Shown: positions 1-43,699 of the stretch, piece after piece
Layout of the letters: each line of letters begins with the position of its first letter
Numbering within the stretch: position 1 is the first letter of the stretch
IMG/VR virus record: IMGVR_UViG_2541047830_000012
From: a virus
Lineage: Duplodnaviria; Heunggongvirae; Uroviricota; Caudoviricetes
Reading direction: 5' to 3' (one strand)
DNA length: 51,169 nt
The notes under the pieces: model-generated
The model's database searches: none
The model's input: the letters and a program-made list of their open reading frames with translations, nothing else
Told to the model about the DNA's origin: nothing
Translations under genes and position numbers: made by a program

Positions 1-195
1 ATGCAATTACCTGTAAAGTTATTAATGAGCCTTATATCTCTGGTCAGCGTTATTGCACGTGCCGGGAAATATAAAAATTACATCCGGGATGAAATAAAAT
101 ACTGGCGATATACATCATACAAGGGGGGGGAATTTCCGGAAGGTTTCACTGATGAGAAATTTTCCAGCGCCATTTACAACGGAAGAATATTTACA

Positions 196-678
196 ATGAA
201 ACGTTTACATACCCTGATGTTATTTCTGGCGGTTCTGTTTACTGGCTTTAACGTGGAAGCAGCGAGCGTGAAACAAGCGCTCAGCTGCGACCCAAACGCC
301 CGGGCTGAACAACCTGGAGCGTGTCCAACAACGTACGAGTTGTACGAAGGTGACGCTGCCTACAAAGCTGCGCTTGACAAAGCATTAAAACCGGTCGGAC
401 TGAGCGGCATGTTCGGTAAAGGCGGGTATATGGATGGCCCTGGCGGAAACGTAACGCCAGTAACCATTAACGGTACAGTCTGGCTCCAGGGCGACGGTTG
501 CAAAGCCAATACCTGCGGCTGGGACTTTATCGTAACACTCTATAACCCAAAAACCCATGAAGTCGTTGGCTACCGCTACTTTGGTTTAGATGACCCGGCC
601 TACCTGGTTTGGTTCGGCGAAATTGGCGTGCATGAATTCGCGTATCTGGTGAAAAACTACGTAGCTGCGGTTAACTAA
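196..678 (+). CDS. Exported protein with signal peptide (island cargo, function unknown)
   Basis: ORF runs to the window edge; likely start ATG 196 after GGAAGA; N-terminus MKRLHTLMLFLAVLFTGFNVEA is signal-peptide-like; four Cys in mature part; family not recognised. Confidence 0.5.
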   Translation: MKRLHTLMLFLAVLFTGFNVEAASVKQALSCDPNARAEQPGACPTTYELYEGDAAYKAALDKALKPVGLSGMFGKGGYMDGPGGNVTPVTINGTVWLQGDGCKANTCGWDFIVTLYNPKTHEVVGYRYFGLDDPAYLVWFGEIGVHEFAYLVKNYVAAVN

Positions 679-693
679 TTTAAGGAGTCTGTC

Positions 694-1104
694 ATGAAAA
701 CTTTTATCAAAACTTTACTCGTTGCTGTAACTATTCTGTTCTCTGTCTTCGCTGCGGCGAAACAAGTAAAACTGCCAAACAACATCAAATACGTTAATAC
801 TACAGAGGCGTTTTCCTGTACTGAGATTGACGGTATGAATTGCCAGACGAAGAATCCGTTCAACTATAAAGATAACAGCTATGTTTTCGTGCTTGAACGT
901 GGTGGTGCCTGGTGTTACGACTACACTGTCTCGGTACTTAACCTGAAAACCGGGAAAGAACAGATGCTCGAATACAAAGACAACCAGCTGTGCTCAGGTA
1001 GCAACAAACCGTTCTTCGAAATCAAAAATGGCGTACCGACGGTAGGAGTCATCGACACATCCGGAAAACCTGTCGTTGTGGCTCTGGACAAACTTAAAAC
1101 CTGA
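694..1104 (+). CDS. Exported protein with signal peptide (function unknown)
   Basis: AAGGAG RBS 7 nt upstream of ATG; N-terminus MKTFIKTLLVAVTILFSVFAAA is signal-like; 136 aa. Confidence 0.55.
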   Translation: MKTFIKTLLVAVTILFSVFAAAKQVKLPNNIKYVNTTEAFSCTEIDGMNCQTKNPFNYKDNSYVFVLERGGAWCYDYTVSVLNLKTGKEQMLEYKDNQLCSGSNKPFFEIKNGVPTVGVIDTSGKPVVVALDKLKT

Positions 1105-1246
1105 GGAGTAAACCATGCGTTTCTCTGCACATTATTAATATCAAAGGTAAATACAGCCCCAGCCATTGTTGCCGGAAAGCCGCTTAATGCGTGGCTCGCC
1201 AGTGAAAGGCTTCTCAGACAATAAACCTCATTCATTTCACCCGTCA

Positions 1247-1279
1247 GGCCGCGTCTTCTCCGGGAGACGTGGCTTTTTT
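1247..1279 (+). terminator. Putative rho-independent terminator
   Basis: GC-rich imperfect hairpin (GCGTCT...AGACG) followed by TTTTTTC. Confidence 0.4.
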
Positions 1280-1324
1280 CATTTATTACACCAGTAAATC
1301 TTAACCACCGATAAGGAGCAAATC

Positions 1325-2143
1325 ATGCGATTAACCAGTCGTTTTGGTTATGTAAACCAGATACGCCGTGACCGTCCGCTGACACACGAAGAACTGATGC
1401 ACCATGTACCGGGTATTTTCGGTGAAGACCGGCATACCTCCTGCAGTGAACGCTATACGTACATCCCCACCATCACCGTACTGGAAAGCCTGCAGCGGGA
1501 AGGCTTTCATCCATTCTTCGCCTGCCAGACCCGCGTACGTGACCCGGACCGCCGGGAATACACCAAACACATGCTGCGTCTGCGCCGTAACGGAGAGATA
1601 AACGGAGAACATGTCCCTGAAATTATTCTGCTCAACTCTCATGACGGTACCTCCAGCTACCAGATGCTGCCGGGTTACTTCAGGTTCGTCTGCCAGAACG
1701 GATGCGTCTGTGGTCAGTCTCTGGGGGAAGTGCGTGTTCCGCACCGGGGAAATGTGGTGGACAGAGTCATTGAAGGGGCTTACGAGGTGGTGGGCGTGTT
1801 TGACCGGATAGAGGAGAAGCGTGATGCCATGCAGTCGCTGATTCTGCCGCCACCGGCACGCCAGGCGCTGGCACAGGCGGCACTGACTTACCGTTATGGT
1901 GACGAACATCGGCCCGTCACCACCGCCGACATTCTGACGCCACGACGCCGGGAGGATTACGGTAAGGACCTGTGGAGTGCTTATCAGACCATCCAGGAGA
2001 ATATGCTGAAAGGCGGGATTTCCGGTCGCAGTGCAAAAGGAAAACGTATCCACACCCGTGCCATTCACAGCATCGACACCGATATTAAGCTCAACCGCGC
2101 ATTGTGGGTAATGGCAGAAACGCTGCTGGAGAGCCTGCGCTGA
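1325..2143 (+). CDS. DUF932 family protein (YfjQ/YafZ-like, CP4-type island)
   Basis: 272-aa ORF with AAGGAG RBS; sequence resembles the YafZ/YfjQ family as recalled; conserved position upstream of the antirestriction gene. Confidence 0.75.
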   Translation: MRLTSRFGYVNQIRRDRPLTHEELMHHVPGIFGEDRHTSCSERYTYIPTITVLESLQREGFHPFFACQTRVRDPDRREYTKHMLRLRRNGEINGEHVPEIILLNSHDGTSSYQMLPGYFRFVCQNGCVCGQSLGEVRVPHRGNVVDRVIEGAYEVVGVFDRIEEKRDAMQSLILPPPARQALAQAALTYRYGDEHRPVTTADILTPRRREDYGKDLWSAYQTIQENMLKGGISGRSAKGKRIHTRAIHSIDTDIKLNRALWVMAETLLESLR

Positions 2144-2388
2144 TGCAGCATGTCCCTGAAGGCGTGATTCAGGCACCAGAATCACCCGACGCCCCGGAGG
2201 CGCTGCCGGGGTGTCGTTCCATTTCTGATGATGACCTGTGCGCCTGGTGTACCCGTCTGCTTTACCGTCCCGGAGAAATCAGTCTGTGCAGACTGAGTAC
2301 AGGCAATGGCATCTGGCCATCCGTCTGTGACCGGAACGGTTACGCGTACGGCTGTCCGGAATTTCAGCCGAATATCATTCATCCCTGA
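2143..2388 (+). CDS. Small island protein (YkfF/DUF905-like by position)
   Basis: ATG overlaps upstream stop (TGATG), suggesting translational coupling; 81 aa; sits before the antirestriction gene as ykfF does in CP4-6. Confidence 0.5.
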   Translation: MQHVPEGVIQAPESPDAPEALPGCRSISDDDLCAWCTRLLYRPGEISLCRLSTGNGIWPSVCDRNGYAYGCPEFQPNIIHP

Positions 2389-2481
2389 TATTACCGGGTC
2401 TCACGGTCAGTGATGAACGTGATGTTGCCAGCTCCCGACCTTTACTCCCTCTCATTTATTCACATTACAAGGATTTCATAC

Positions 2482-2955
2482 ATGAAAACATTGTCTCAGA
2501 ACACCACCTCTTCGGCCTGTGCACCGGAGACTGGCCTGCAACAACTGGTTGCCACCATAGTCCCTGATGAACAGCGCATCAGCTTCTGGCCGCAGCATTT
2601 TGGCCTCATTCCACAGTGGGTGACCCTGGAGCCCCGTGTCTTCGGCTGGATGGACCGTCTGTGCGAAAACTACTGCGGTGGTATCTGGAATCTGTACACC
2701 CTGAACAACGGCGGGGCATTTATGGCCCCTGAACCGGATGACTATGATGACGAAACATGGGTACTGTTCAATGCCATGAACGGTAACCGCGCTGAAATGA
2801 GCCCGGAAGCCGCCGGCATTGCCGCCTGTCTGATGACGTACAGTCATCACGCCTGCCGTACGGAGTGTTATGCCATGACGGTTCATTATTACCGTCTGCG
2901 GGATTACGCCCTGCAGCATCCGGAATGCAGCGCCATTATGCGCATTATTGACTGA
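2482..2955 (+). CDS. Antirestriction protein, KlcA/ArdB family (YfjX/YafX-like)
   Basis: 157-aa ORF; sequence and position typical of CP4-island antirestriction proteins; start chosen at internal ATG 2482. Confidence 0.8.
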   Translation: MKTLSQNTTSSACAPETGLQQLVATIVPDEQRISFWPQHFGLIPQWVTLEPRVFGWMDRLCENYCGGIWNLYTLNNGGAFMAPEPDDYDDETWVLFNAMNGNRAEMSPEAAGIAACLMTYSHHACRTECYAMTVHYYRLRDYALQHPECSAIMRIID

Positions 2956-2970
2956 AAGGGGGCCGGAACA

Positions 2971-3447
2971 ATGCAACAGATTTCCTTTCTGCCCGGAGAA
3001 ATGACAACCAGAGAGCGCAGCCTCATTCAGCGGGCCCTGAAAACCCTGGACCGCCATCTTCATGAACCCGGCGTGGCCTTCACCTCCACCCGTGCGGCAC
3101 GGGAATGGCTGATTCTGAACATGGCGGGACTGGAGCGTGAAGAATTCCGGGTGCTGTATCTGAATAACCAGAATCAGCTGATTGCCGGTGAAACCCTCTT
3201 CACCGGCACCATCAACCGCACGGAAGTCCATCCCCGGGAAGTGATTAAACGCGCCCTGTATCACAATGCCGCAGCCGTGGTGCTGGCGCACAATCACCCG
3301 TCCGGTGAAGTCACACCCAGTAAGGCAGACCGGCTTATCACCGAACGTCTGGTACAGGCACTGGGCCTGGTGGATATCCGGGTGCCGGACCATCTGATAG
3401 TCGGTGGCAGCCAGGTTTTCTCCTTTGCCGAACATGGTCTGCTTTAA
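2971..3447 (+). CDS. RadC-like JAB-domain protein (YeeS/YkfG/YfjY family)
   Basis: HNHPSGxxxPSxxD JAMM-like motif (AHNHPSGEVTPSKAD) visible in translation; GGGG RBS. Confidence 0.85.
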   Translation: MQQISFLPGEMTTRERSLIQRALKTLDRHLHEPGVAFTSTRAAREWLILNMAGLEREEFRVLYLNNQNQLIAGETLFTGTINRTEVHPREVIKRALYHNAAAVVLAHNHPSGEVTPSKADRLITERLVQALGLVDIRVPDHLIVGGSQVFSFAEHGLL

Positions 3448-3509
3448 CCCGTCACAACCACATCACACCTGTTTTCACTTTTATCTTCTGTCTTCAGAGG
3501 TATCCCACT

Positions 3510-3731
3510 ATGAAAATCATCACCCGTGGCGAAGCCATGCGTATTCACCGTCAGCATCCTGCATCCCGTCTTTTTCCGTTCTGTACCGGCAAATACCGCT
3601 GGCACGGCAGTGCTGAAGCGTATACCGGTCGTGAAGTGCAGGATATTCCCGGTGTGCTGGCCGTGTTTGCTGAACGCCGTAAGGACAGTTTTGGCCCGTA
3701 TGTCCGGCTGATGAGCGTCACTCTGAACTGA
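3510..3731 (+). CDS. DUF987 family small protein (YeeT/YkfH-like)
   Basis: 73-aa ORF in the conserved position between the radC-like gene and the toxin-antitoxin module. Confidence 0.7.
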   Translation: MKIITRGEAMRIHRQHPASRLFPFCTGKYRWHGSAEAYTGREVQDIPGVLAVFAERRKDSFGPYVRLMSVTLN

Positions 3732-3749
3732 GTCAGTAAGGGCATTCTG

Positions 3750-4394
3750 ATGAGCAGAATTATCACCACCACCGTGTATACACTGCATGAGCTATCCTCC
3801 ACCGCACAGGAAAAAGCCCGCGACTGGTACCGTCAGCATCATGCTGACAGCAACTGGTATGAAAACGTGTATGAGGACTTCAGGGCGGTCTGTGGCATTT
3901 TCGGAATTGACCTCCGCCAGCGCGTTTTCCGGCTCAGCAACGGCAGGTTTATGGAAGAGGCGTGCATCTGGTTCAGCGGATTCTGCAGCCAGGGGGACGG
4001 AGCCTGTTTTGAAGGACGCTGGCACTGGCAGCCAGCAACAGCCAGAAGGCTCCGGGAGTATGCCACACAGGACCATGAACTCCATCGTATCGCGGATGCC
4101 CTGCAGGCGGTGCAGAAACGTAACTTCTGGCAACTGCAGGCTGAAATCCACCACCGGGGACGTTACTGCCATCCGTACAGCATGGATATCACTGTTACCC
4201 GGAACAGTCCGACTGGTCAGGCTATGACAGCCGATGCGGAAGCCGCTGTCAGCGAAGCCCTGCGCGACCTGGCCTTCTGGTTGTACCGTCAGCTGGAAAA
4301 CGAGTACGACAGGCTGACCTCTGATGCCGCTGTGGATGAGGCCCTTCTCATCAACGAATACACCTTCACCGAAGCCGGTCTGCGCGCCGGCTGA
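3750..4394 (+). CDS. Hypothetical protein (214 aa) between DUF987 gene and antitoxin
   Basis: Tightly packed ORF with no recognisable motif; as far as I recall this position is empty in the K-12 CP4-44 layout. Confidence 0.55.
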   Translation: MSRIITTTVYTLHELSSTAQEKARDWYRQHHADSNWYENVYEDFRAVCGIFGIDLRQRVFRLSNGRFMEEACIWFSGFCSQGDGACFEGRWHWQPATARRLREYATQDHELHRIADALQAVQKRNFWQLQAEIHHRGRYCHPYSMDITVTRNSPTGQAMTADAEAAVSEALRDLAFWLYRQLENEYDRLTSDAAVDEALLINEYTFTEAGLRAG

Positions 4395-4409
4395 CCTGAG
4401 GACTTTATC

Positions 4410-4778
4410 GTGTCAGACAAACTCCATGAGACAAATTATCCCGACGACCATAACGACCGCCTCTGGTGGGGACTGCCCTGCACCGTGACGCCCTGTTTCG
4501 GGGCACGTCTGGTGCAGGAGGGTAACCGGTTGCATTACCTTGCCGACCGCGCCGGTATCAGAGGCCTGTTCAGCGATGCAGATGCGTACCACCTGGACCA
4601 GGCCTTTCCGCTGCTGATGAAACAACTGGAACTCATGCTCACCAGCGGTGAACTGAATCCCCGCCATCAGCATACCGTCACGCTGTATGCAAAAGGGCTG
4701 ACCTGCAAAGCCGATACCCTCAGCAGTTGTGGTTACGTTTATCTGGCTGTTTATCCGACGCCCGAAATGAAAAATTAA
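4410..4778 (+). CDS. cbeA: Type IV antitoxin CbeA (YeeU family)
   Basis: Translation (…DDHNDRLWWGLPCTVTPCFGARLVQEGNRLHYLADRAGIRGLFSDADAYHLDQAFPLLMKQLELMLTSGELNPRHQHTVTLYAKGLTCKADTLSSCGYVYLAVYPTPE) matches YeeU/CbeA as recalled; GTG start. Confidence 0.8.
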   Translation: MSDKLHETNYPDDHNDRLWWGLPCTVTPCFGARLVQEGNRLHYLADRAGIRGLFSDADAYHLDQAFPLLMKQLELMLTSGELNPRHQHTVTLYAKGLTCKADTLSSCGYVYLAVYPTPEMKN

Positions 4779-4866
4779 CTCTCCAGAATAGCCTTCTGCT
4801 ACGGCCTGGTGTTTTCACCACGCCACTTTTCCATTTTTATATCTGCATATCAGGAAAATCTTCAGT

Positions 4867-5241
4867 ATGAAAACATTACCTGTATTACCCGGGCAGGCGG
4901 CCAGTTCTCGCCCGTCTCCTGTTGAAATCTGGCAGATACTGCTGTCCCGACTGCTGGACCAGCACTATGGCCTCACACTGAATGACACACCGTTTGCCGA
5001 TGAACGTGTGATTGAGCAGCATATTGAGGCAGGCATTTCACTGTGTGATGCGGTGAACTTTCTCGTGGAAAAATACGCGCTGGTGCGTACCGACCAGCCG
5101 GGATTCAGCGCCTGTACCCGCTCTCAGTTAATAAACAGCATCGATATCCTCCGGGCTCGCAGGGCGACCGGCCTGATGACCAGCGACAATTACAGAACGG
5201 TAAATAACATTACCCTGGGTAAGTATCCGGAGGCGAAATGA
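4867..5241 (+). CDS. cbtA: Type IV toxin CbtA (YeeV family, cytoskeleton-binding toxin)
   Basis: 124-aa ORF directly downstream of cbeA; sequence typical of YeeV/YkfI/YpjF toxins. Confidence 0.8.
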   Translation: MKTLPVLPGQAASSRPSPVEIWQILLSRLLDQHYGLTLNDTPFADERVIEQHIEAGISLCDAVNFLVEKYALVRTDQPGFSACTRSQLINSIDILRARRATGLMTSDNYRTVNNITLGKYPEAK

Positions 5242-5432
5242 TGACACTGGAAGCCGACAGCGTTAACGTACAGGCGCTGGATATGGGGCACATTGTCGTT
5301 GACATTGATGGTGTTAATATCACTGAACTGATTAATAAGGCCGCTGAAAACGGTTATTCACTCCGCGTGGTGGATGACCGTGACTCTACCGAAACACCGG
5401 CAACTTATGCCAGCCCTCACCAGTTGCTGTAA
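5238..5432 (+). CDS. yeeW: YeeW-like small protein
   Basis: 64-aa ORF overlapping the cbtA stop (ATGA); position as yeeW in CP4-44. Confidence 0.55.
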   Translation: MMTLEADSVNVQALDMGHIVVDIDGVNITELINKAAENGYSLRVVDDRDSTETPATYASPHQLL

Positions 5433-5588
5433 GACAATGCAGTGATACAGGGTATAGTGCCATTAACCACAGAAACAGCACTGTTGTCCTGTATTAAGCA
5501 GGCAAGAGAAGATGTCCTTACCCTGCGCCATCTGCAGCTTCTGCACCAGAACCGGTGAATCTCACTCAACAGGCTTCATTTCCCCTGA

Positions 5589-5620
5589 CGCCAGCCTGAA
5601 TACAGCTGGCGTTTTCATTT
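5589..5620 (+). terminator. Rho-independent terminator after the toxin-antitoxin operon
   Basis: Hairpin CGCCAGC-ctgaataca-GCTGGCG followed by TTTTCATTT. Confidence 0.6.
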
Positions 5621-5872
5621 ATAAACAGAAAGGAAAACCGATAATAATGGAATGGACGCCCCGACCATGAAGCAACGGTAGGATATTACTGATAAACCTT
5701 CCAGTGGAGGTGCGTTATGGCCGTTTTAACGATTAGCATTGACCTGACAAAAAATGAATTCCAAATCCACGGTCTGGGTAGGAACAGAAAAATCTAAGCT
5801 CAGAAAACGGATTAAAGTAAGCGTCAACGGAGCACCGTATTGACGCTTATTTATTGGTGAGAACTACGTTCC

Positions 5873-6229
5873 ATGGCAGGAGTTCGTCAACACGGTTGGA
5901 GGGCCATTCCGGCAGTATGCTCAGAATATGGCGCAGATACGCTTCCGGATCGATACCGTTCAGACGGCAGGTGCCTGCTTTTCCGGCAACAAGCAGGAAT
6001 CTCAGCGCTGAAGCAGGAATTAGAGGTAAAAACGCCCTACCGGGCCATGAATCACCCGGTCATTGGAGTAGTAACCAAAGCAGATTTAGCCAGCATGGAA
6101 CAAATATCTTTGGTGACAAGTTGGTTACGGGAAGCTGGAGCGCACAACGTGTTAGTAACCAGTGCAGTTAATAACAATGGAGTTACAGAACTTTTTGCCT
6201 TGCTGCATACAGAAGAAGGCTGTTGTTAA
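5873..6229 (+). pseudogene. EutP/PduV-like GTPase fragment (yoeF-like pseudogene)
   Basis: Two overlapping ORFs in different frames (5854-6171, 5873-6229) suggest a frameshifted gene; C-terminal residues resemble EutP/PduV; position matches yoeF upstream of yeeX. Confidence 0.45.
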
Positions 6230-6329
6230 TTTCGATTGGTTCTCAGATGAGAATGATGACGGTGATACACAGATAAGAATCAATGAGCAATGAGGGTTGC
6301 CGGGCAACCCTCATTGAATAAAACGGGAA

Positions 6330-6659
6330 TTACTTCGCTTCGCCGTTTTTCATTTCGCCCATAGCTTTCAGCTTTTTGGAGATATCGCGGCGTTCTTTGG
6401 AGAGCTCGGCATTTTTGATGATGTAATCGTCAACGCGATCTTCATAGTCACCTTTCATGCTGGCGATGATGCCCTGGATTGCTTCAACGCTCATCCCTGG
6501 CTTGATGTAATCGCTCAGGTTGTCCAGCAACAGGACGCGCTTCTGGTTGTCACGGATCTTTTTCTCAACGTCCTGAATTTCACGTTGCAGTTTGTTCTTA
6601 CGACGGAACAGACGAACAAATTCCAGTACGTCCTGGAATGAAGGCTTGGTAGTTTCCAT
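6330..6659 (-). CDS. yeeX: YeeX (UPF0265/DUF496 protein)
   Basis: Translation from [18 protein letters not shown]… matches E. coli YeeX as recalled; start set at the internal Met. Confidence 0.85.
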
Positions 6660-6830
6660 TTTTATACCCCTGATAATGTGAGAGTCGGATTCGTTTAAGC
6701 AACCGCTATTCGTTAGGGCCAACATTACTCATAGCTGCCGCAGATGACAATGCTTTTATCCCTTTTCACTATCATACCCTTTATCCTTGCTGAATCGAAG
6801 CAGCAGCAAGATGATTCTGAAGTTCAGGAA

Positions 6831-7889
6831 TTATTTGCGCAAGGCCCGGCAAATCAGATTCGATAGCAACTCAAGCTGATGTGCCGTTTCCATGTTCAGC
6901 CACACATAACCATAGATTGGTGTTTCCAAGACTTTCAGGTCATGGTGGTTATCGAGCAACTGACGCAGCTCTTCCACAGCATCGTTCAATTTTTCCGTAT
7001 TGGCAAAAACCGGCTGCGGATTACCTTCGTACAGCGCATGAACAAGGCTCAGCAGTATTTGCTGCATCATGTGCTGGGTATCACGAAGTTTTTGCGCGTT
7101 CAATAACACGAAATGGCTGGGGCGCGTGGCCCAGTATGCATTGATTTGCAACTCCAGCATACAAACCAGATTGCGATTAATGGTCTGGATACCTTCATAT
7201 ATCGATTTGGGAATACGGGTTTCTTTGCTGGCGGGCGCAATCAGCCCACGCATTTTCACGGCATCGGTCAGGAGTTTTTGTAGATGGCTTTCCAGACGTG
7301 GGCGTTCGAGTAAGTTCGGTGAGAATGCAGATTGATAGACCCGATTATACTCGGTCAGACTTTTCGCCAGTTGAATGCGCCAGTGGATGAACGCCCGTTG
7401 TGGCCAGATACCGGTAAACAACATTGCCAGTAAAGAGCCGAGGATCACATCGCCGCTTCGCCATAACGCCGTATCAATTTCACCTGTCGGGGAACCCACA
7501 ACAATTGCCAGCGTCACCCCAATCAATAATCCTTGATACGGTTTCTTGCCCAGCGCCAGCCAACCGCAAAGAAACATCGCCGCCGCGCACCAGACTAACA
7601 TCAGCGGTAACGAAATTAACTCCAGTTGCAGAGCGATAAGACCTAAAATCGAACCCAACACCGTACCGCCAATACGTTCGAAGGCACGAGGGACAACGTT
7701 CCCCCAGAACGAGATTGGCCCCATAATCACCACCATGGTGACCAGCGGCCAGGTGCTTTCCGGGATAGTAAACAGGCGGATAATGAGAAAAGTGAGCAGG
7801 AATGCCAGCGCGACCCGAGTACCATGCACAATGCGGTAATGGCGGTATACCCGGATTTCAAACGGGCTTAATGACTTATCGGCACGCAC
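6831..7889 (-). CDS. yeeA: YeeA, putative FUSC-family inner-membrane transporter
   Basis: Hydrophobic 350-aa ORF matching YeeA as recalled; start uncertain (GTG 7889 or upstream ATG 7931). Confidence 0.8.
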   Translation of the reverse strand: MRADKSLSPFEIRVYRHYRIVHGTRVALAFLLTFLIIRLFTIPESTWPLVTMVVIMGPISFWGNVVPRAFERIGGTVLGSILGLIALQLELISLPLMLVWCAAAMFLCGWLALGKKPYQGLLIGVTLAIVVGSPTGEIDTALWRSGDVILGSLLAMLFTGIWPQRAFIHWRIQLAKSLTEYNRVYQSAFSPNLLERPRLESHLQKLLTDAVKMRGLIAPASKETRIPKSIYEGIQTINRNLVCMLELQINAYWATRPSHFVLLNAQKLRDTQHMMQQILLSLVHALYEGNPQPVFANTEKLNDAVEELRQLLDNHHDLKVLETPIYGYVWLNMETAHQLELLSNLICRALRK

Positions 7890-8086
7890 GCAGAAACTCC
7901 GTAATGAAGATGAAAAGCGCTCATAACACATCTGTCGGCCAGAAGGCGCGCCTCTGAGTTATCCGACGGACATACCGGGAACAGTGTAATTTCCCGGCAG
8001 GAGCGAAAAATTTGAAAGGCGCATCTTACTCTTTTCGCTTTCAAAAAAAGAGTGGTCTTCGCGTTAACACACCGCCCTGAGATGAA

Positions 8087-8560
8087 TTAGTGATGTTTTG
8101 GCTGCACCGCAACATACATTTCGATATCCCAGTACCCATCTTCCGCGCCATTGTTCAAGTAAACCTCGAAGCAGGGCTTTGGTAACATTTCATAAGCACT
8201 GTCCTGCAAGAGGCTATTAAAGAACTGATACCAGGGTTTAGCAAAATCATCACCGACTACACGAGCCACCGCCACCGCATACTGACCACCTGAAATTTCT
8301 GTCAGAATGACGCCCTCACTGTTTTCGGGGAGCGTAAAGTTATTCGGTACCGTCACGACGGTGTCGCAGCGTAATTTTTCGGCGGGTGTTTCATCTGGAT
8401 TGTCGTAATAGACAGCAACCCACTCCTTCGGCACAATATTTTTGCTATCTATCCACATCATCAACTGCTCAAAACCTTTCTTTACCATCTGCTCCCACGG
8501 GCCAACAAGATGGAAACCTGCAACGGTACGTTTATCTTCCTGCTTAATCTCGTAGTTCAT
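8087..8560 (-). CDS. sbmC: DNA gyrase inhibitor SbmC (GyrI)
   Basis: 157-aa [27 protein letters not shown]… matches SbmC as recalled; LexA box immediately upstream. Confidence 0.9.
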
Positions 8561-8576
8561 GACGCCTCCACTAACA

Positions 8577-8592
8577 CTGTTTTTATATACAG
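8577..8592. promoter_or_regulatory. LexA box (SOS operator) in the sbmC promoter
   Basis: CTGTTTTTATATACAG fits CTGT-N8-ACAG, 17 bp upstream of the sbmC start; sbmC is a known SOS gene. Confidence 0.7.
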
Positions 8593-8678
8593 TATAGTTG
8601 CAATATTAAAACCACAAGGAATGAGTGTTGATTATGCGAGCAGACTCGCACTCCTGCCAGTCTGCTGCAAAAGAAAGG

Positions 8679-9851: not shown

Positions 9852-10638
9852 ACCCTCAGGTGTTTCAAATAGCTGTTCTTTTTACGGAAATACTTATGAA
9901 CTGGCTGGAATAAAGTGCAAGAAAATGTGACTACTATCTCATTTTTATCTGACATGATCTGTTGCCACTCGCTGCCAAATTGTCGCGCTAAAGCTGATTA
10001 GCACGGTGATATTTGATACTCTGGCAGACAGCAGAAATAACGGATTTAACCTAATGATGAATGACGGTAAGCAACAATCTACCTTTTTGTTTCACGATTA
10101 CACGCACCCCACCTGAGAACAGCCATGAGTAAGGGTTTCATGGTTTATGATTTTAGTTTGGTACACAATTTGGTACACATCGCAATTTTCACATCACCGG
10201 GCAGTCATAAAACTCACCATAACGCTCTTCGTTGATGATGTACGTGATCACCAAAAATATCGCATCCGGACTAGTTCCATCTTCATGCGTAGGTATCTGT
10301 TCATGCCTACCTGTCTGCAAATCCTAAAGATGAGATTTTAGAGTTTTGGGATATCTTTTTATCCTCAGTTCTCTATCCATTCTGCAAACCAGTAACGAAC
10401 CATCACCGTGTGATAGTGAGGCATCCGCTACGTTAAGCGCAGAGAAATGATGCAGTGGTGGGCGGATTGGATTGATGAAAAGGTGGTGTGACCCGCCTTA
10501 ACAACTATCGAATATCACAAAACCTTGCAATCCAGTGCAAAGCTTTGTGTGCAAGAATATTTTCTCACCAACATCATGACAACATTATTCTCTTAGTTAA
10601 TTACATCGAAAAATCATACATAACCATATTAATTAACA

Positions 10639-10661
10639 ATCTGCGCCTTTTCGACGCAGAT
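10639..10661 (-). terminator. Hairpin terminator at the prophage end downstream of the tailspike gene
   Basis: ATCTGCG-ccttttcga-CGCAGAT inverted repeat flanked by T/A-rich runs on both strands. Confidence 0.45.
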
Positions 10662-10684
10662 TTCATATTGTTTTATGTTGAATA

Positions 10685-13063
10685 TCATATTTTATTTAAG
10701 TTATTCTTTTTTAATGTCATCTCTAGTTCTTCGATACGTCTTTCTATATTATCAATTCTCTCCCAGCATTGCTGAATTGATTTAACAATAGGTGGGATAA
10801 ACTCATCGTAACCGAGTGAGTAAACATCATCCCCACCATTTTTCAAGTGATGCTGTAGCCCACCGAACTCAACACCTAATTTTTCACACAGTTTCAATAC
10901 GTCCTGTGCAATAAACCAGTGATGGTATCGTTGACGTTTTTTACTGCCGTCAGGAGTTTTCTGCACTACTTCAAGATATTTTTCTTCGACATTCTCAATA
11001 GCTGATATAGTAATTCCATCAACATCTCGTTCTACTTTTTTTGGTACAATTCTTGTCTTTTCAATAACATCAATATAATCATCACGCATATCCCAGCGAC
11101 CATCGACAGGACGAAGCCCAAGGATAAATTCAATCCCCAGCAAAGTATCTCGGATATCTGTTTTATCACGCGCATCAGATCTGTTTTGCACAGTTCCATA
11201 TACATACGTCGTTGTGGAAGAATTGCCAAGCTGCACCTGATTACTTCCAGACACTCTTGCATCATTGCCAACAGTTGTTGTGTTGGTAAGTGATGATGTG
11301 CTTTCCCCTGATTGAGTTAATCTACCTGAATTATGTCCAATAGCCGTGTTTAATGCGCCGGTTGTATTTGTGACAAGAGAGCCAGACCCAATTGCAACGT
11401 TACTGCTTCCCGATGTTGTTCCTTTTAATGCCTGCTGTCCAACCGCAACATTATTATCACCCGTTGCTGCTATAAGTGCCATGTGACCAATAGAAACGGT
11501 AAATGAACCTAGCGTTTGAGTTTCACCGCATGCACCATAACCAATTACAACAACATTATCTGTAATTGTTGACTCGGTTGCCGCTCCAGCACCAATAACA
11601 ACGCTTTCATTCCCGGCAAGATTCTTGCGCATTGCGAACATTCCAATGCCAACATTATCATGCCCAGTCCCTGTACCTGCTGCCTCCGCAGCACCAAGAC
11701 AGTTTCCCGCTCTGTAGCCAACCATGGTGTTATTTGAACCAATAGAGAAGTCTCCGGCAAAAGAGCCTACGTATACACTATTAGACTGTGAGTAATCTCC
11801 AGGATTTCCATTCGCCCGATATCCTACTGCAACTGTATAAATAGTATCTGGAGCCTCAGCCATGGCCTCAAAGCCAACTCCAACGTTATATCTACCGCCC
11901 TTAACTTTTTCTCCTGCACCAAGTCCGAAGAATGAGTTATAGCTCCCGGTTGTTAGCCACTCGCCAGCAACAGAACCTACAGCAGTGTTTCCTGTTCCAG
12001 TACATCGATACAAAGTCAGGAAGCCAACTCCGGTATTATTATTTCCTGAAATATTACTCATCAATGATTTTGACCCAATGGCAGTATTGTTAACACCATC
12101 GGTCAGATCCTGTAACGCTCGCGGGCCAAATGCTGTATTATCGTAACCCTTTGGCGCTGTTGTTGGATCTGGTAACTCCGGGGTTAGTTTTTCACCACCG
12201 CCACCATTGGCACAAAGATTGTAAGATCGAATAAATTCAGCCACTGGCCCAAGTTTTAAATAACCATTGGCAATATTAATTCTGACACTTACATTAACTG
12301 AGCTACCAGGAGCTTCTATTGTCCTGTCATCAACCCAGGTAAAACTCTGTGGTATCCCGTCATAAGTTAATGTCACATCTCCTTTATCATTATAATTATA
12401 GAACAATGTATAACGCTCATTTATAGATTCAGAACCTGATGATCCTCCTCTCCTCCACCACTCTGCATTATCAAAAATAAGTAATCCTGGACCATAATAT
12501 TTTCCCTTCTGACCCAAGATCATAGGAGTCGATAATCGCCACCTTCCCTCTGGAACATATACATCGATCCCAGTTCTTTCTGCGTCTTTAAACGATTCAT
12601 CACATAATAAAACACCACCTTCAACAGCACCAAATCCACGAACATCACCATTATCTCTCCATCGAGCCATTTGCAACTCAGGATACTTCTTAGCGCCATC
12701 AATGTCTTCTAATTGGTCCCGCAGCTGATCAGGATCATACTTCAGTACATTAGGAAAATAGAACTGCTGAGCACCGTAAGCATCATATACAGCCATAGAA
12801 TGGCCTTGCACAGTTACGAACTTGGCAATCTGTCCGTTATATACAGGGTAACCAGCAGCGTTAAGGATGATTGGTTGTGAAACAGGAATGTGAGAACCAT
12901 CTTCACTCTCTACATAAACCTGAATCTGGTTTTCAGGATTTACCGGGTCAGTGTCAATTTTACCGATATAAATTTTGCCATTAGCTACGGCTTTAAAAGA
13001 GCGAGCCATAGTGAAGAGTTGCGATGGCATCCCAATTACAACATTTGGGGTTATATTAGGCAT
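10685..13063 (-). CDS. Tailspike / tail fibre: P22 gp9-type head-binding N-terminus, Gly-rich repeat body, C-terminal S74-type chaperone domain
   Basis: N-terminus ([43 protein letters not shown]…) matches the P22 tailspike head-binding domain as recalled; the middle has repeated GxxNTAxGxxA motifs; C-terminal …[23 protein letters not shown]… resembles the self-cleaving chaperone of endosialidase-type fibres; start at ATG 13063 (AGGA 8 nt upstream), alternatives 13072 or 13156. Confidence 0.8.
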
Positions 13064-13408
13064 ATTAGTCATCCTGTTTGAAAACTTAGAAATTGAATAA
13101 AAAGGAATGACTGTAGACAAAGATGCAAGTGTTTTGAAAAATAATCTTCTATCCATTTTAAATCATGCAACACAAACAAAACGATTATTTTACAACGTGC
13201 ACGAATCTTGATCAACAGGCATATATTTTAATTGCTGAATACGTCACTTAAAAATGACAAGTACTACTTTTATTCCTATCGTCCATGATTTTAATTTTCA
13301 AATATTATTAAATAACAATTCCTATTTATAATATCTGTCATTTAATTTGCTCCAGATACAAGTAATCGCTGCAGCATGACTGCAGTGATACATAATCAAT
13401 CATACAAC

Positions 13409-13487: not shown

Positions 13488-13739
13488 ATGGGAAGAGATG
13501 ACCCGCAATTTAATCTGCGGCTACCTTACGAATTAAAGGAAAAACTAAAACAGCGAGCCAAATCCAATGGCCGCTCTCTTAATTCAGAATTAGTTCAGAT
13601 AGTGACTGATGCTGTATCAAAGCCATCCAAAATTTCAGGCTATCGAGACGATGCGGAACGCATCGCTGATGAGCAGTCCGAACTTGTTAAGAAGATGGTG
13701 TTTGATACGCTGAAGGATTTGTACAAAAAAACCACCTGA
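13488..13739 (+). CDS. mnt: Mnt repressor (ribbon-helix-helix, P22 immI-type)
   Basis: Translation MGRDDPQFNLRLPYELKEKLKQRAKSNGRSLNSELVQIVTDAVSKPSKISGYRDDAERIADEQSELVKKMVFDTLKDLYKKTT closely matches P22 Mnt as recalled. Confidence 0.85.
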   Translation: MGRDDPQFNLRLPYELKEKLKQRAKSNGRSLNSELVQIVTDAVSKPSKISGYRDDAERIADEQSELVKKMVFDTLKDLYKKTT

Positions 13740-13838: not shown

Positions 13839-14084
13839 ATGGCGAAAAAACCAGGTGAAAACACAGGAAAAACGGCGGAATATACCAAGAGGTTGGCCCA
13901 CGCGGCGGTAAGAAAGACAATTTTGCCACCGTCAAGGACAACGAAAGGCTTCCGCCAACAACAAAGCCAGGTCATGGCTGGGTATTGGATAAGCGAACTC
14001 CAGACAGCAAAAAGTAATACTCAAGCCGGGTCACTCCGGCTTTTTGATATGTCGCTCGCAGAACTCAACAAGCCTGCTCATTAA
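13839..14084 (+). CDS. Possible small basic protein convergent with the HExxH gene
   Basis: GAGGTA RBS 5 nt upstream of ATG; 81 aa; overlaps the 3' end of the opposite-strand gene, so it may not be real. Confidence 0.3.
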   Translation: MAKKPGENTGKTAEYTKRLAHAAVRKTILPPSRTTKGFRQQQSQVMAGYWISELQTAKSNTQAGSLRLFDMSLAELNKPAH

Positions 14085-14396
14085 GTAGCAGTAAGTCTCG
14101 TTGGCTCTTCCTGGTTCAACATCAACGCCGACCCTTGAGCAGATATCGAATGCCATGTGAGCGCACTCATGGGCAATAGTAGATAGTTTGCCATTGAACA
14201 CGCCTATCACATGCAAAACACCATTCTCGCTGCTCATTGTATGAGACGCTCCGTTGGCGTCCGAGTCATGCACGTCAACGCCAAGTTTTTGATGCAGGCG
14301 TTGCCATTCTGGAAAGTCTCTACAAAACACAATTGTACCGCTCTCAAAGAGCGGAACGAGCATCTTTGGTACGTTTCCAATGTTAACTTTTTTCAT
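14031..14396 (-). CDS. Small HExxH-motif protein (putative Zn-metallopeptidase-like)
   Basis: 121-aa ORF with AGGA RBS; HECAH motif (…STIAHECAHMAFDI…); sits between the ejection genes and mnt, where P22 has sieA (recalled). Confidence 0.6.
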   Translation of the reverse strand: MKKVNIGNVPKMLVPLFESGTIVFCRDFPEWQRLHQKLGVDVHDSDANGASHTMSSENGVLHVIGVFNGKLSTIAHECAHMAFDICSRVGVDVEPGRANETYCYLMSRLVEFCERHIKKPE

Positions 14397-14567
14397 GGTA
14401 TCCTGCTCAAAACTAAGGAGGTTGGAGGTTGGTGTGCTTGAATGGTTTCTGTTGGCTGCATTAGTCGTTTCTGGTTGGGTGTATGAGTATCGAATGCACT
14501 CTTATTAGACGTCAACTAGTTTTGCCGACTCGCGCCAACTATACTGGCCGCACCCTTCAGTGCGACA

Positions 14568-15323
14568 TCAAGTCGCGCTTGTTACTGCCTTCGCTGTCTT
14601 TTTCCTGTAGCTTTCACCTTTCAGTTCGAACATATATCCGTGATGGATCAGCCGGTCTGCCGCCGCCACCGCCATAGTCTCATCCACGAAGATGCTGCCC
14701 CACATGCTGAACGGATGGTTACTGGTTATCACCAGGCTCCCACGTTCATAGCGATGCGCTATTAACTCGAACAGTACTCCCGTTTCGGCGCTGTCGCGTT
14801 TGACATAGCCAAGATCATCCACCACTATCACCCGGTAGCGATCCAGTTTCAGTAGCAGCTCATTCAGTTTCAACTGCGCTCTGGCTTTACGTAGTTCCTG
14901 CAACAACTCTCCTGCGCTGTAGAACCGGGCCCGGTAGCCCTGGCCTACTACGCCATCCACGATCGCTGCCGCCAGATGGCTTTTCCCCAACCCGCTGGCT
15001 CCGAACAGCAGAACGTTTTCTCCTGCATCAACCCAGTCTGTCGTTTCACAGAGTTGCCGGAACTGAGCTCCATTCAGTTCCGGCACCTGACTGAAGTCGT
15101 ATTCGCTTAGCGTTTTGGCAACTGGCAACCGGGCCTCCTTTTTATAACGACGCAGTTTTTCACTCTCGCGCCACAGGAGTTCTTCATTGCATAGCGTCAG
15201 AAGATAGCGCGATGGTGTCCAGCCTTCTGCCAGTGCTCGTTTTTCCAGAGCGTGCCATTCAGCTCCAACTCGTGTCAGGCGTAGTTTACGCAGGCTGCGT
15301 TCAAGGTGATGGATATTGCTCAC
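14568..15323 (-). CDS. istB: IS21-family helper ATPase IstB
   Basis: Walker A GASGLGKSHLA and Walker B VIVVDDLG; typical IstB length. Confidence 0.9.
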   Translation of the reverse strand: MSNIHHLERSLRKLRLTRVGAEWHALEKRALAEGWTPSRYLLTLCNEELLWRESEKLRRYKKEARLPVAKTLSEYDFSQVPELNGAQFRQLCETTDWVDAGENVLLFGASGLGKSHLAAAIVDGVVGQGYRARFYSAGELLQELRKARAQLKLNELLLKLDRYRVIVVDDLGYVKRDSAETGVLFELIAHRYERGSLVITSNHPFSMWGSIFVDETMAVAAADRLIHHGYMFELKGESYRKKTAKAVTSAT

Positions 15324-16819
15324 TGCGAACCTCCCTTGCCACGCAGTAGTTGCTCATAACTGCTCAGGTTATGCTGTTTCACATTGACTACCGGCAACGC
15401 CTTTTCCTTTATACCCAGGAAGCGCATCAGCCGGTGCAGATCCACGTTTCCCGGGGTATTCAGCATCTGCTCCATACCTTTTGCCACGACTGAGATATCG
15501 TCGTATCCTGCAGCCAGTTTCAGAGCATGTACCATCAGCCTGCCTGCCATGTCGGGTTCCAGATGATTACATAAGCGACGCCACAGCCTCCGCCATTCAT
15601 CGTCTGGCAGGATGTCATTTCTCAGCGTTGCATGGCAGAACGCACCGGGCTTTTTTGCCAGACTGTCGATCACATGTCGGAAGTCGATACGACGGGCCCG
15701 CGTCTTCCCTTTTTCTGGTCTGACACGTGGGCAGCTCATGACCTCGCTGCTGCCAACGTAACAGCTCAGACGATCGTCCCATAACCGGACCCGTAACAGT
15801 TGACCTACAAGCCGGGAAGGTACGCTGTAGACGACGTGCTTCACATTGATGGTACTGCTGCGGCTAACCCTCACAGTCAGCTCATCATAGTCAGCACTGC
15901 GACGAAGCGGCAGCGGTTTCAGATGAAGACGTTCTTCCTTGACCAGATCCTGATTGTTACGGTTGTGCCGCATAACCTGCTGAGTGATGAAGGCCTGATA
16001 TTCTTCTATGGTGCTGAAGTCGTTACTGCCCCGCAGTATCAGCGCCTGACAGATACGCCTTTTCAGATGTCCGTGGGCACTTTCAACCGAGCCATTTTCG
16101 TGGCCCCGACCGGCATTATTGTGTACGCCCTGCATTCCGTAGTGCTGACAGAGAGCAGCATAACGCTCAGTCAGCTCGCGGCGTCCATCTTCGCCCTGTT
16201 GTTTCCATGCTGCCCTCAGGCTGTCCGTTTTATGTTCTACCGGCACTCCGCCCAGTTGTCCGAGGGCTTCCTGCAGACCTTCAGCCAGAGCAGAGAAGCT
16301 CTCACCACCCAGCACAACCCGCATCCAGCTCCAGTGGCTCCATTCCAGACGGAAGTGATACAACTTATGCGCCAACAACTTACCGGCGATGGTGACAACT
16401 ACACCTTTCAGTTCAGTAAAGTCCGACAGACCTCGCAGACCGGGCTGATGTCGCTGGCGGAACATGACCTCCTGCTCTGCACCATACTGTAGCTTCCATT
16501 CGCAGACCCGCCGTTGCATTGTTCTTCGAAGGCTGTTGGGGTACTGGCCGGGATATTTATCCTGTAGCATCTCCAGCAGAGTTGTTGGTGTCAGAGCCGG
16601 CCTCTCTTTCAACAGAGGAACAAGCATGCTGTCCCACACAGCTTCCAGAGGATCTTTGCGTGTGCGCCAGTGCCGAACACTGTTTTTTGCCCACTCTCCT
16701 TTTTCGATCCGACGACCAGAACGGACTGAGATACCAGCCTTCATGGCCGAGATATGCTGAGTTATACCTTTCTTACGCTGAGTCATATAGTAACTGACCT
16801 GAGAAGTATTGAGCGTCAC
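15320..16819 (-). CDS. istA: IS21-family transposase IstA
   Basis: 499-aa ORF with N-terminal HTH and integrase-like core, directly upstream of and overlapping istB. Confidence 0.85.
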   Translation of the reverse strand: MTLNTSQVSYYMTQRKKGITQHISAMKAGISVRSGRRIEKGEWAKNSVRHWRTRKDPLEAVWDSMLVPLLKERPALTPTTLLEMLQDKYPGQYPNSLRRTMQRRVCEWKLQYGAEQEVMFRQRHQPGLRGLSDFTELKGVVVTIAGKLLAHKLYHFRLEWSHWSWMRVVLGGESFSALAEGLQEALGQLGGVPVEHKTDSLRAAWKQQGEDGRRELTERYAALCQHYGMQGVHNNAGRGHENGSVESAHGHLKRRICQALILRGSNDFSTIEEYQAFITQQVMRHNRNNQDLVKEERLHLKPLPLRRSADYDELTVRVSRSSTINVKHVVYSVPSRLVGQLLRVRLWDDRLSCYVGSSEVMSCPRVRPEKGKTRARRIDFRHVIDSLAKKPGAFCHATLRNDILPDDEWRRLWRRLCNHLEPDMAGRLMVHALKLAAGYDDISVVAKGMEQMLNTPGNVDLHRLMRFLGIKEKALPVVNVKQHNLSSYEQLLRGKGGSQ

Positions 16820-16927
16820 GCCATTTCCTGTTGGATCATGTAAATGACACTCAGGTTACAAAACCGGCCAGAATAATCGGCGCCAGGCGGACTGAGTTAT
16901 TGTCGTCTCATACACTCTCTAACAAAA

Positions 16928-43688: not shown

Positions 43689-43699
43689 GAGGAATTAAT

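What the first reader, a model, noticed from the sequence alone, without database searches (positions are those of the whole stretch)
10685..13063. Chimeric tailspike: P22 head-binding domain fused to a Gly-rich repeat fibre with self-cleaving chaperone C-terminus
The first 110 residues or so closely follow the P22 gp9 head-binding domain, but the rest is not a P22-type endorhamnosidase. It has many GxxNTAxGS-type repeats and ends with a segment resembling the intramolecular chaperone (S74 peptidase-like) of endosialidase and T5 L-shaped fibres. This implies a swapped receptor-binding module, hence a different and unknown host surface receptor, and post-translational auto-processing.
Basis: partly seen in the sequence, partly recalled or inferred. 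Interest (0 to 1): 0.45.

Follow-up and report, generated by a model that had tools for sequence, protein, structure and literature searches.

The report
Modular prophage tailspike with self-cleaving chaperone
This gene encodes the tailspike of a P22-like prophage of human E. coli. It joins the usual P22 virion-attachment domain to a widespread but uncharacterised repeat-built receptor-binding module and ends in a self-cleaving folding chaperone, which is a sound but ordinary case of phages swapping host-recognition modules.

Summary
Window 10685-13063 (minus strand) is an intact 792-aa gene, and RefSeq annotates it with the same coordinates as "phage tailspike protein".

- **Residues 1-113:** a P22 head-binding domain (Pfam 213 bits; 70% identical to P22 gp9, 90% to Sf6).
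- **The rest:** no similarity to the P22 endorhamnosidase.
- **Residues ~306-615:** about 17 Gly/Asn/Thr/Ala-rich repeats with a significant 17-residue period. AlphaFold models them as a beta-solenoid, so a spike rather than a thin fibre.
- **Residues 629-792:** an S74-type intramolecular chaperone domain.
  - Alone, it passes the Pfam threshold.
  - It carries the Ser629-x4-Lys634 motif (RSDARDK), which is invariant or nearly so in 71 homologues.

The same receptor-binding and chaperone cassette occurs in thousands of metagenomic proteins. There it is joined to P22-, T7- or G7C/SU10-type attachment domains, with the junction at residues ~110-160.

Phage CUS-3 is a direct precedent (P22 head-binding domain, endosialidase, S74 chaperone). 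The receptor, any enzymatic activity and the actual cleavage remain untested. Verdict: new member of a known kind, of modest interest.

The parts
10685..13063 (-). Complete tailspike gene (792 codons plus stop)
   Evidence: ORF. Identical to RefSeq CDS WP_021527227.1 'phage tailspike protein'. PHROG 4636 'tail spike protein', 780 bits.
13072..13075 (-). Likely ribosome-binding site (AGGA), 8 nt upstream of the ATG at 13063
   Evidence: Read directly from the sequence. It supports the PGAP start over the upstream ATG at 13156.
12725..13063 (-). Residues 1-113: P22-type head-binding (virion attachment) domain
   Evidence: PF09008, 212.9 bits. PDB matches to Sf6 gp14 and P22 gp9. 69.9% identical to P22 and 90.3% to Sf6.
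12611..12724 (-). Residues 114-151: neck/linker still shared with the phage CUS-3 tailspike; the module junction zone
   Evidence: 86% identity to the CUS-3 endosialidase tailspike over residues 1-151, and none beyond. Homologues with other N-termini start aligning at residues ~110-160.
12149..12610 (-). Residues 152-305: N-terminal subdomain of the receptor-binding module. It holds the pectate-lyase-like beta-helix cap motif (GFGAVEGG...[10 protein letters not shown]) and the conserved [14 protein letters not shown] segment
   Evidence: The A1 profile hits the N-terminal cap of phi29 gp12, Sf6 gp14 and beta-1,3-glucanase in PDB, E 5e-9 to 8e-6. Homologues P0010 and P0031 pass PF12708 over profile positions 3-65. 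AF2 pLDDT is >90 here. Conserved D198, E201, R204, S208, E216.
11219..12148 (-). Residues 306-615: about 17 Gly/Asn/Thr/Ala-rich 17-residue repeats, predicted beta-solenoid body. The most variable stretch is 456-560, where homologues gain or lose whole rungs
11180..11218 (-). Residues 616-628 ([13 protein letters not shown]): highly conserved stem just before the cleavage site
   Evidence: Mean identity is 0.82 across 70 homologues for residues 616-635. R628 is invariant.
11162..11179 (-). Residues 629-634 (SDARDK): predicted scissile/nucleophilic Ser629 and general-base Lys634
   Evidence: Motif found. D630, R632, D633 and K634 are invariant and S629 is present in >=90% of 71 homologues. The spacing is the same as Ser1264/Lys1269 of T5 pb1 (PMC4690869).
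10688..11179 (-). Residues 629-792: S74-type C-terminal intramolecular chaperone domain. It has a long beta-hairpin 'tentacle' (~664-701) and a C-terminal helix (~752-791) suited to a trimeric coiled coil

Best explanation
This is the tailspike of an apparently complete ~39-kb P22-like temperate prophage integrated between dacD and sbcB in a human E. coli lineage that includes an O25:H4 strain. It is a three-part mosaic.

(1) Residues 1-113, plus a neck to ~151, dock the trimer onto the P22-type tail hub.

(2) Residues ~152-628 form a beta-solenoid. It starts with a pectate-lyase-like cap subdomain, followed by about 17 narrow 17-residue rungs. This body recognises a surface glycan of the host, either O-antigen or capsule. 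Its identity, and whether it is cut, are unknown.

(3) Residues 629-792 are an S74-type intramolecular chaperone. By analogy with K1F endosialidase and T5 pb1, three chaperone domains assemble through their C-terminal helices and hairpin tentacles and template trimerisation of the body. They then cut themselves off between Arg628 and Ser629, using Ser629 activated by Lys634. This should leave a 66-kDa mature spike and release a 19-kDa fragment.

Shown here: the domain composition, the fold assignment, the conserved dyad, and the modular distribution of the cassette. Inferred: trimer assembly, cleavage, glycan binding.
For: - Gene and context: the RefSeq CDS is identical. It is the last gene of a P22-like virion module (portal, coat, gp4, gp10, needle, ejection proteins, Arc), with integrase at the far end next to sbcB.
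- Head-binding domain.
- Junction: 86% identity to CUS-3 up to residue 151 and none after. Homologues with PF03906 (T7 tail fibre) or PF18668 (TSP1/gp66) N-termini align from residues ~110-160 to the C-terminus at 45-77% identity. P0002 lies in a T7-like prophage and P0003 in an SU10-like phage.
Against: - On the full-length protein PF13884 scores 19.5 bits, below the 22-bit cut-off. A ~50-residue hairpin insertion splits the Pfam match.
- Sequence-only comparison with the CUS-3 chaperone is weak: hhalign probability 35%, 21 columns.
- No catalytic residues could be assigned in the body. The narrow 17-residue rungs leave little room for a typical depolymerase groove.
- No experimentally characterised close relative exists. 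The best cultured-phage match to the body is 30-37% identity over half the protein.
- Nothing here shows that the prophage is inducible.
Confidence: 0.8

Rival explanations
1. The body is an active depolymerase (glycosidase, lyase or esterase) that digests the host O-antigen or capsule, as every characterised P22-like tailspike does. It is not a purely binding module.
For: - The cap motif is shared with pectate-lyase-like enzymes and enzymatic spikes (phi29 gp12, Sf6), E 5e-9 to 8e-6.
- Homologues pass PF12708, and NCBI names two of them 'glycosyl hydrolase family 28-related'.
- Conserved acidic and aromatic residues: D198, E201, E216, W243, E368, W369.
- From established knowledge: a short-tailed P22-like virion must get through the O-antigen layer.
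Against: - PF12708 matches cover only the first ~60 of 213 profile positions. This protein has no Pfam hit in residues 116-615.
- No acidic residue before the cleavage site is conserved in more than 90% of homologues.
- The 17-residue rungs resemble adhesin-type solenoids (pertactin, TpsA/FhaB-like, TAA heads) more than enzyme grooves.
Confidence: 0.45
2. The body is a non-enzymatic, adhesin-like beta-solenoid that only binds its receptor. Penetration of the glycan layer is left to other factors.
For: - The profile hits the YadA head at E 1.4e-3.
- A phage relative is annotated as FhaB-like.
- Rung number varies freely among homologues.
- T5 pb1, which carries the same chaperone type, has no known enzymatic activity (PMC4690869).
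Against: - Every characterised P22-like tailspike is an enzyme (PMC5380687).
- The cap subdomain is of the enzyme-associated type.
- Left-handed TAA heads superpose poorly on the model, at rmsd 7.6-12 A.
Confidence: 0.35
3. The C-terminal domain is not removed. It stays on the mature spike as a distal tip, either as a structural cap or as a second receptor-binding site.
For: Two of the 71 aligned homologues have Ala instead of the nucleophilic Ser (NRADLRDK) and so presumably do not cleave. Reviews note that some C-terminal domains of receptor-binding proteins are credited with receptor recognition (PMC5380687).
Against: This protein keeps both Ser629 and Lys634 in the invariant RSDxRDK context. 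In every member tested experimentally (K1F, T5 pb1), this dyad gives cleavage and release (PMC4690869).
Confidence: 0.1
4. The gene is a relic of a defective prophage and no longer serves a phage.
For: In this window an IS21-family element has landed 1.4 kb upstream in the same prophage. The gene is rare, found at full length in 18 of 5426 complete E. coli genomes.
Against: - The ORF is intact and 100% identical in 16 genomes.
- The whole virion, lysis, replication and integration gene set is annotated intact in strain ZH063.
- The IS interrupts only a small accessory gene.
- Five identical copies sit on IMG/VR viral contigs.
Confidence: 0.1

Closest known systems
Phage CUS-3 endosialidase tailspike (E. 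coli K1, P22-like)
   Same: The overall design is the same: P22 head-binding domain, then a foreign receptor-binding module, then a C-terminal Peptidase_S74 chaperone. Residues 1-151 are 86% identical. It holds the same genomic position at the end of the virion module.
   Different: The central module is an endosialidase beta-propeller (PF12217, PF12219), which is absent here. The chaperone domains are barely alignable by sequence. CUS-3 has the capsule-modifying neuO next to the spike, and nothing comparable lies downstream here.
K1F endosialidase and T5 L-shaped tail fibre pb1 C-terminal intramolecular chaperone domains (PDB 3GW6, 4UW8); also GA-1 neck appendage (3GUD) and MyRF ICA (7DC3)
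   Different: Sequence identity is only 13-18%. The hairpin is longer and splits the Pfam match. The upstream 'sensor' Arg/Asp residues described for T5 and K1F were not mapped here.
P22 gp9, Sf6 gp14 and HK620 tailspikes
   Same: Homologous head-binding domain (70-90% identity) and the same role and gene position. The body is likewise predicted to be a parallel beta-helix.
   Different: No sequence similarity beyond residue ~117-128. Those spikes have no S74 domain and use non-cleaved C-terminal regions for trimerisation (PMC3357383, abstract). Their rungs are wider and their active sites are known.
Bacillus phage SPO1 gp2.52 and relatives (annotated tail spike / intramolecular chaperone auto-processing domain protein)
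   Same: 36-37.5% identity over residues 356-766, covering the repeat rungs and the chaperone together.
   Different: They come from myoviruses of a Gram-positive host. They lack the head-binding domain and the N-terminal cap subdomain, and they are also uncharacterised.
YadA-like heads of trimeric autotransporter adhesins (1P9H, UspA1, BpaC, EibD)
   Different: The period is 17 residues rather than 14. There is no Pfam YadA_head hit. Superposition is poor (rmsd 7.6-12 A), whereas right-handed helices fit at 3-4.5 A. This is probably convergence of repeat composition.

Membership tests
P22-type tailspike head-binding domain (Pfam PF09008) | Profile match above the curated cut-off, covering the whole domain at the N-terminus | tested here: met
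   212.9 bits against a cut-off of 24; residues 1-113 match profile positions 1-113 of 113.
P22-type tailspike head-binding domain (Pfam PF09008) | Encoded at the end of a P22-like virion assembly module, after the ejection-protein genes and the immI/ant moron | tested here: met
   The annotated neighbours are Arc, DNA transfer proteins, needle, gp10, gp4, P22 coat and portal. This arrangement is described in PMC2629481.
P22-type tailspike head-binding domain (Pfam PF09008) | Physical binding of the trimer to the tail hub | not testable with these tools
   Needs virion proteomics or cryo-EM.
Peptidase S74 / C-terminal intramolecular chaperone domain (Pfam PF13884) | Profile match above the curated cut-off | tested here: met
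   The isolated C-terminal 177 aa score 25.1 bits against a cut-off of 22. The full-length protein scores only 19.5 bits. Homologues at 48-65% identity score 28-34 bits.
Peptidase S74 / C-terminal intramolecular chaperone domain (Pfam PF13884) | Nucleophilic Ser and general-base Lys five residues later, at the start of the domain | tested here: met
   S629 and K634 lie in RSDARDK. K634 is invariant and S629 is present in >=90% of 71 homologues. The spacing equals Ser1264/Lys1269 of T5 pb1.
Peptidase S74 / C-terminal intramolecular chaperone domain (Pfam PF13884) | K1F/T5-type fold: mixed alpha-beta part, beta-hairpin tentacle, C-terminal helix for a trimeric coiled coil | tested here: met
Peptidase S74 / C-terminal intramolecular chaperone domain (Pfam PF13884) | Autoproteolytic release after trimer folding; the chaperone is required for folding | not testable with these tools
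   Needs expression of the wild type against S629A and K634A mutants and a C-terminal truncation.
Peptidase S74 / C-terminal intramolecular chaperone domain (Pfam PF13884) | Upstream Arg/Asp 'folding sensor' residues from the neighbouring subunit that form the oxyanion hole (T5 Arg1250/Asp1239) | not tested
   Conserved D601 and R603 and invariant R628 exist upstream. No trimer model was available to map them.
P22-type endorhamnosidase receptor-binding domain | Sequence similarity to P22 gp9 beyond the head-binding domain | tested here: not met
   PDB matches to P22 gp9 stop at residue ~117. No P22 tail family appears in Pfam at E<=1.
Pectate-lyase-like right-handed beta-helix depolymerases (Pfam PF12708 and relatives) | Profile match and beta-helix fold | tested here: inconclusive
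Pectate-lyase-like right-handed beta-helix depolymerases (Pfam PF12708 and relatives) | Identifiable catalytic acidic residues in a substrate groove | tested here: inconclusive
   Conserved D198, E201, E216 and E368 are present in 80-90% of homologues. Their spatial arrangement was not examined.
YadA-like trimeric autotransporter head (left-handed beta-roll) | 14-residue repeat, YadA_head profile match, left-handed roll | tested here: not met

The most novel reading that the evidence does not exclude
The ~480-residue body (cap subdomain plus narrow 17-residue rungs) may be a structurally uncharacterised class of receptor-binding module with no solved structure and no Pfam family. It could be a non-enzymatic, adhesin-like solenoid, or it could have a new kind of active site along the conserved Y/R/E/W stripe. 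It travels as a fixed cassette with its own chaperone between P22-like, T7-like and SU10-like podoviruses of Proteobacteria. Its rungs-plus-chaperone half is still recognisable in SPO1-like myoviruses of Bacillus. Conservation of 45-77% across host genera would then point to a receptor or scaffold logic different from that of the hypervariable O-antigen depolymerases.
Probability: 0.2. Interest if true: 0.5.

Novelty: new member of a known kind. Interest (0 to 1): 0.28.

Why it matters
The practical value is modest.

- **Host range:** the gene marks the host-range determinant of a P22-like prophage carried by human clinical E. coli isolates, one of them typed O25:H4. Prophage tailspikes of this kind have been used to build strain-specific antibacterials and detection reagents (PMC3303846, listed).
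- **Protein production:** knowing that the protein needs its C-terminal chaperone and should lose 19 kDa on maturation is essential for expressing it correctly.
- **A gap in knowledge:** the central module has thousands of relatives but no solved structure, no Pfam family and no known receptor or activity. A structure or substrate for any member would annotate many phage proteins at once.
- **Concept:** the gene adds another clean example of receptor-binding cassettes being exchanged between unrelated phage chassis at a fixed junction. This was already established for CUS-3 and K1F.

Tried and rejected
- **Sequence search of PDB, full protein and family profile.** It found only the head-binding domain and the beta-helix cap. 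Nothing matched the repeats beyond a marginal YadA hit, and nothing matched the chaperone. The C-terminal profile alone gave only weak hits: MyRF ICA at E 0.09 and a phage long-tail-fibre tip chain at E 0.65.
- **NCBIfam.** No family matched.
- **hhalign of the C-terminal family against the CUS-3 chaperone.** It aligned only 21 columns around the HHxxIAQ motif, probability 35%, so sequence alone does not link the two.
- **A YadA/TAA-head relationship for the repeats.** Considered and rejected as homology: wrong period, no Pfam hit, poor superposition.
- **Clues to the receptor from neighbouring genes.** No gtr, acetyltransferase or other conversion gene lies next to the spike or elsewhere in the annotated prophage. 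There is no tRNA in the window.
- **Literature searches for this protein or an ST131 P22-like tailspike.** Nothing specific was found.
- **The longer ORF start at 13156.** Rejected in favour of 13063, on the basis of the RBS, the alignment with P22 and Sf6 N-termini, and PGAP.
Full report
**What is at the coordinates**

The window holds one long ORF on the minus strand, 10685..13156. That start gives MPNITPNVV..., which aligns with the N-termini of P22 gp9 (MTDITANVV) and Sf6 gp14. An AGGA lies 8 nt upstream of it.

RefSeq annotates exactly the same 2379-nt CDS as WP_021527227.1, "phage tailspike protein", in E. coli ZH063 and other strains. The gene is 100% identical in 16 complete E. coli genomes and 98-99% identical in 2 more, out of 5426. 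All the carriers with a listed source are human isolates, one of them typed O25:H4. About 1100 further genomes share only the first ~430 nt.

**Context**

The gene is the last gene of a P22-like virion module. Upstream lie an Arc-family gene, ejection ("DNA transfer") proteins, a tail needle, gp10, gp4, P22-family coat and portal. Beyond these come terminase, lysis genes, a lambdoid early region and an integrase next to sbcB.

This is therefore a ~39-kb prophage inserted between dacD and sbcB, and it appears complete. No O-antigen or capsule modification genes are annotated in it. The 834 bp between the spike's stop codon and dacD hold no credible gene and no tRNA.

**Head-binding domain**

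- Pfam PF09008 matches residues 1-113 end to end, at 212.9 bits against a cut-off of 24.
- Identity over these 113 residues is 69.9% to P22 gp9 and 90.3% to Sf6 gp14. PDB hits to both stop at residue ~117-128.
- Against the CUS-3 endosialidase tailspike, identity is 86% through residue 151 and then vanishes.
- No P22 endorhamnosidase family is detected.

It is not fulfilled.

**The repeat region**

Residues 306-615 are rich in Gly (17%), Thr, Ala, Asn and Ser. They can be laid out as about 17 units of N-[TV]-x-[VI]-G-x2-[AS]-[LGM]-x5-G-x2. Self-identity peaks at lags 17 (z 8.5), 34 (z 5.3) and 50 (z 3.8). The 95th percentile of the maximum z in shuffled sequences is 3.4. The repeat is therefore real.

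- Right-handed helices superpose at 3-4.5 A over 190-264 residues. They include pertactin, the K1 lyase, a K64-1 depolymerase, the HK620 and LKA1 spikes, and TpsA adhesins.
- Left-handed helices superpose at 7.6-13 A. They include LpxA, LpxD, GlmU and the trimeric-autotransporter heads.

I take this to mean that the model is a right-handed beta-helix, so a spike body rather than a thin fibre. This is an inference from rmsd values, because the coordinates could not be inspected. The weak YadA-head profile hit (E 1.4e-3) and the 15-20% identity to TAA heads are best read as similar repeat composition.

**The subdomain before the repeats**

Residues ~152-305 are modelled with pLDDT >90. They begin with the GxGxxxG...A...VYVPxGxY cap motif of pectate-lyase-like beta-helices. 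The family profile hits that segment in a beta-1,3-glucanase, in the phi29 gp12 chains and in Sf6 gp14, at E 5e-9 to 8e-6. Homologues P0010 and P0031 pass PF12708 over profile positions 3-65. This protein itself has no Pfam hit anywhere in 116-615.

A strongly conserved [14 protein letters not shown] segment and a set of conserved polar residues might mark either a binding or catalytic surface or the trimer interface. These residues are D198, E201, R204, S208, E216, W243, Y352/R353, E368/W369, R416 and Y450/R451. I could not decide which role they have.

**The C-terminal domain**

*Sequence evidence*
- On the full protein PF13884 (Peptidase_S74) scores 19.5 bits, just below its 22-bit cut-off, and covers only profile positions 1-32.
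- The reason is a ~50-residue hairpin insertion between the two halves of the Pfam domain. When the C-terminal 177 residues are scanned alone, two stretches are found and the score is 25.1 bits.
- Homologues at 48-65% identity score 28-34 bits, and one with a short hairpin matches profile positions 1-57.

*Structure evidence*
- A model of the last 183 residues has pLDDT 82.9. It shows short helices, a long beta-hairpin at model residues 55-92 (protein residues ~664-701), a mixed alpha-beta part and a 40-residue terminal helix.

*Catalytic motif*
- The domain starts with R628-S629-D-A-R-D-K634.
- In 71 aligned homologues R628, D630, R632, D633 and K634 are invariant, and S629 is present in at least 90%.
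- The Ser-x4-Lys spacing is that of Ser1264/Lys1269 in T5 pb1. There Ser-to-Ala mutation blocks auto-proteolysis, and the Lys is proposed to activate the Ser (PMC4690869).
- The 40 residues around the site are the most conserved part of the whole family, at 0.7-0.8 mean identity.
- Predicted products are 66.1 kDa (residues 1-628) and 19.2 kDa (residues 629-792).

**Distribution and modularity**

Residues 116-792 retrieve 3303 proteins at E<=1e-5, even though only the 8000 word-sharing candidates were scored. The best 60 align from residue ~110-160 to ~781 at 40-77% identity. They carry different N-termini:

- P22 head-binding domains, for example in Chimaeribacter, Yokenella and other E. coli;
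- the T7 tail-fibre N-terminal domain (PF03906);
- the TSP1/gp66 N-terminal domain (PF18668);
- or none.

P0002, 77% identical in the cassette, lies in a prophage with T7_gp14-like and SLT-domain internal virion proteins. P0003 lies in an SU10-like phage, next to a second spike.

Homologues differ by whole rungs, with insertions of 17, ~48 and ~65 residues after residues 481, 516 and 550. The most variable stretch is 456-560, which is a plausible specificity region.

Among 50,697 deposited phage genomes, none covers 80% of the protein. The best matches to the cassette are Bacillus phage Mater (29.6% identity over residues 231-766) and SPO1-like phages (36-37.5% over residues 356-766). IMG/VR holds five identical copies and only distant others. 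PHROGs already has a family for it, phrog_4636 "tail spike protein", at 780 bits.

**How it most likely works**

The steps below are inferred by analogy with K1F endosialidase and T5 pb1 (PMC4690869) and with P22-like virions (PMC2629481, PMC5380687).

1. Three nascent chains are brought into register by the C-terminal helices and hairpin tentacles of the chaperone domains.
2. The conserved stem and the solenoid fold on this template.
3. Correct trimer geometry arms Ser629/Lys634, and the chaperone is cut off and released.
4. The mature trimer docks on the tail hub through residues 1-113.
5. The solenoid binds a surface polysaccharide of the host.

Whether the body also cleaves or deacetylates that polysaccharide is open. 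I rate enzyme at about 0.45 and pure binder at about 0.35, as set out in the rival explanations.

**Comparison with the known, and novelty**

The design of P22 head-binding domain, foreign receptor module and S74 chaperone is already known from CUS-3. The same central module is shared with T7-like K1F (PMC5380687; Pfam architecture of CUS-3). The gene is already annotated as a tailspike.

Three things have no description that I could find: the particular central module has no solved structure, no Pfam family and no characterised member. I therefore class the finding as a new member of a known kind.

Noticed in passing
window ~14503-16912 (istB-like ORF 14568..15323 -, istA-like ORF 15320..16819 -): An IS21-family-like element of ~2.4 kb, with a ~7-bp duplicated target (ACACTCT), is inserted in a small hypothetical gene of the prophage, between the Arc gene region and the gp16-like ejection gene. 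That gene is intact in strain ZH063. None of 5426 complete E. coli genomes has the insertion at this site; the best match covers 67% of the query in two pieces.
   Followed up: partly
A1/A2 alignment members (C-terminal motif column corresponding to Ser629): Two of the 71 homologues have Ala instead of the nucleophilic Ser (NRADLRDK) while keeping the rest of the motif. These may be natural non-cleaving variants of the chaperone domain.
   Followed up: no
window 10685-11995 (residues 356-766) against Bacillus phages SPO1, SP8, CampHawk and Goe9: The rungs-plus-chaperone half is 36-37.5% identical (E ~1e-56) to SPO1 gp2.52-type proteins of Gram-positive myoviruses. This is unusually far-reaching similarity for a receptor-binding region.
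   Followed up: partly
window 43640-44323 (+); L015 16992-17615: The prophage early region encodes a protein annotated in RefSeq as 'Nmad5 family putative nucleotide modification protein'. A GIY-YIG nuclease gene also sits near the terminase genes (window ~31712-32197).
   Followed up: no
window 13488-13739 (+) and 14031-14396 (-): The 'ant moron' between the ejection genes and the tailspike is reduced to an Arc-family repressor gene and small hypothetical genes, with no antirepressor gene. CUS-3 differs here (mnt, mnt, ant).
   Followed up: no
window 9852-10684: An 834-bp stretch with no credible gene lies between dacD and the tailspike stop codon, in a region of low GC (~0.39). It presumably contains the prophage end (attR). 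No tRNA is present, and the attachment site was not mapped.
   Followed up: no
window 1-8600: The left part of the window matches the ZH063 region that encodes a CP4-44-like island remnant (antirestriction protein, yeeT, cbeA/cbtA toxin-antitoxin, yeeW). After it come tmaR, yeeA, sbmC and dacD.
   Followed up: no
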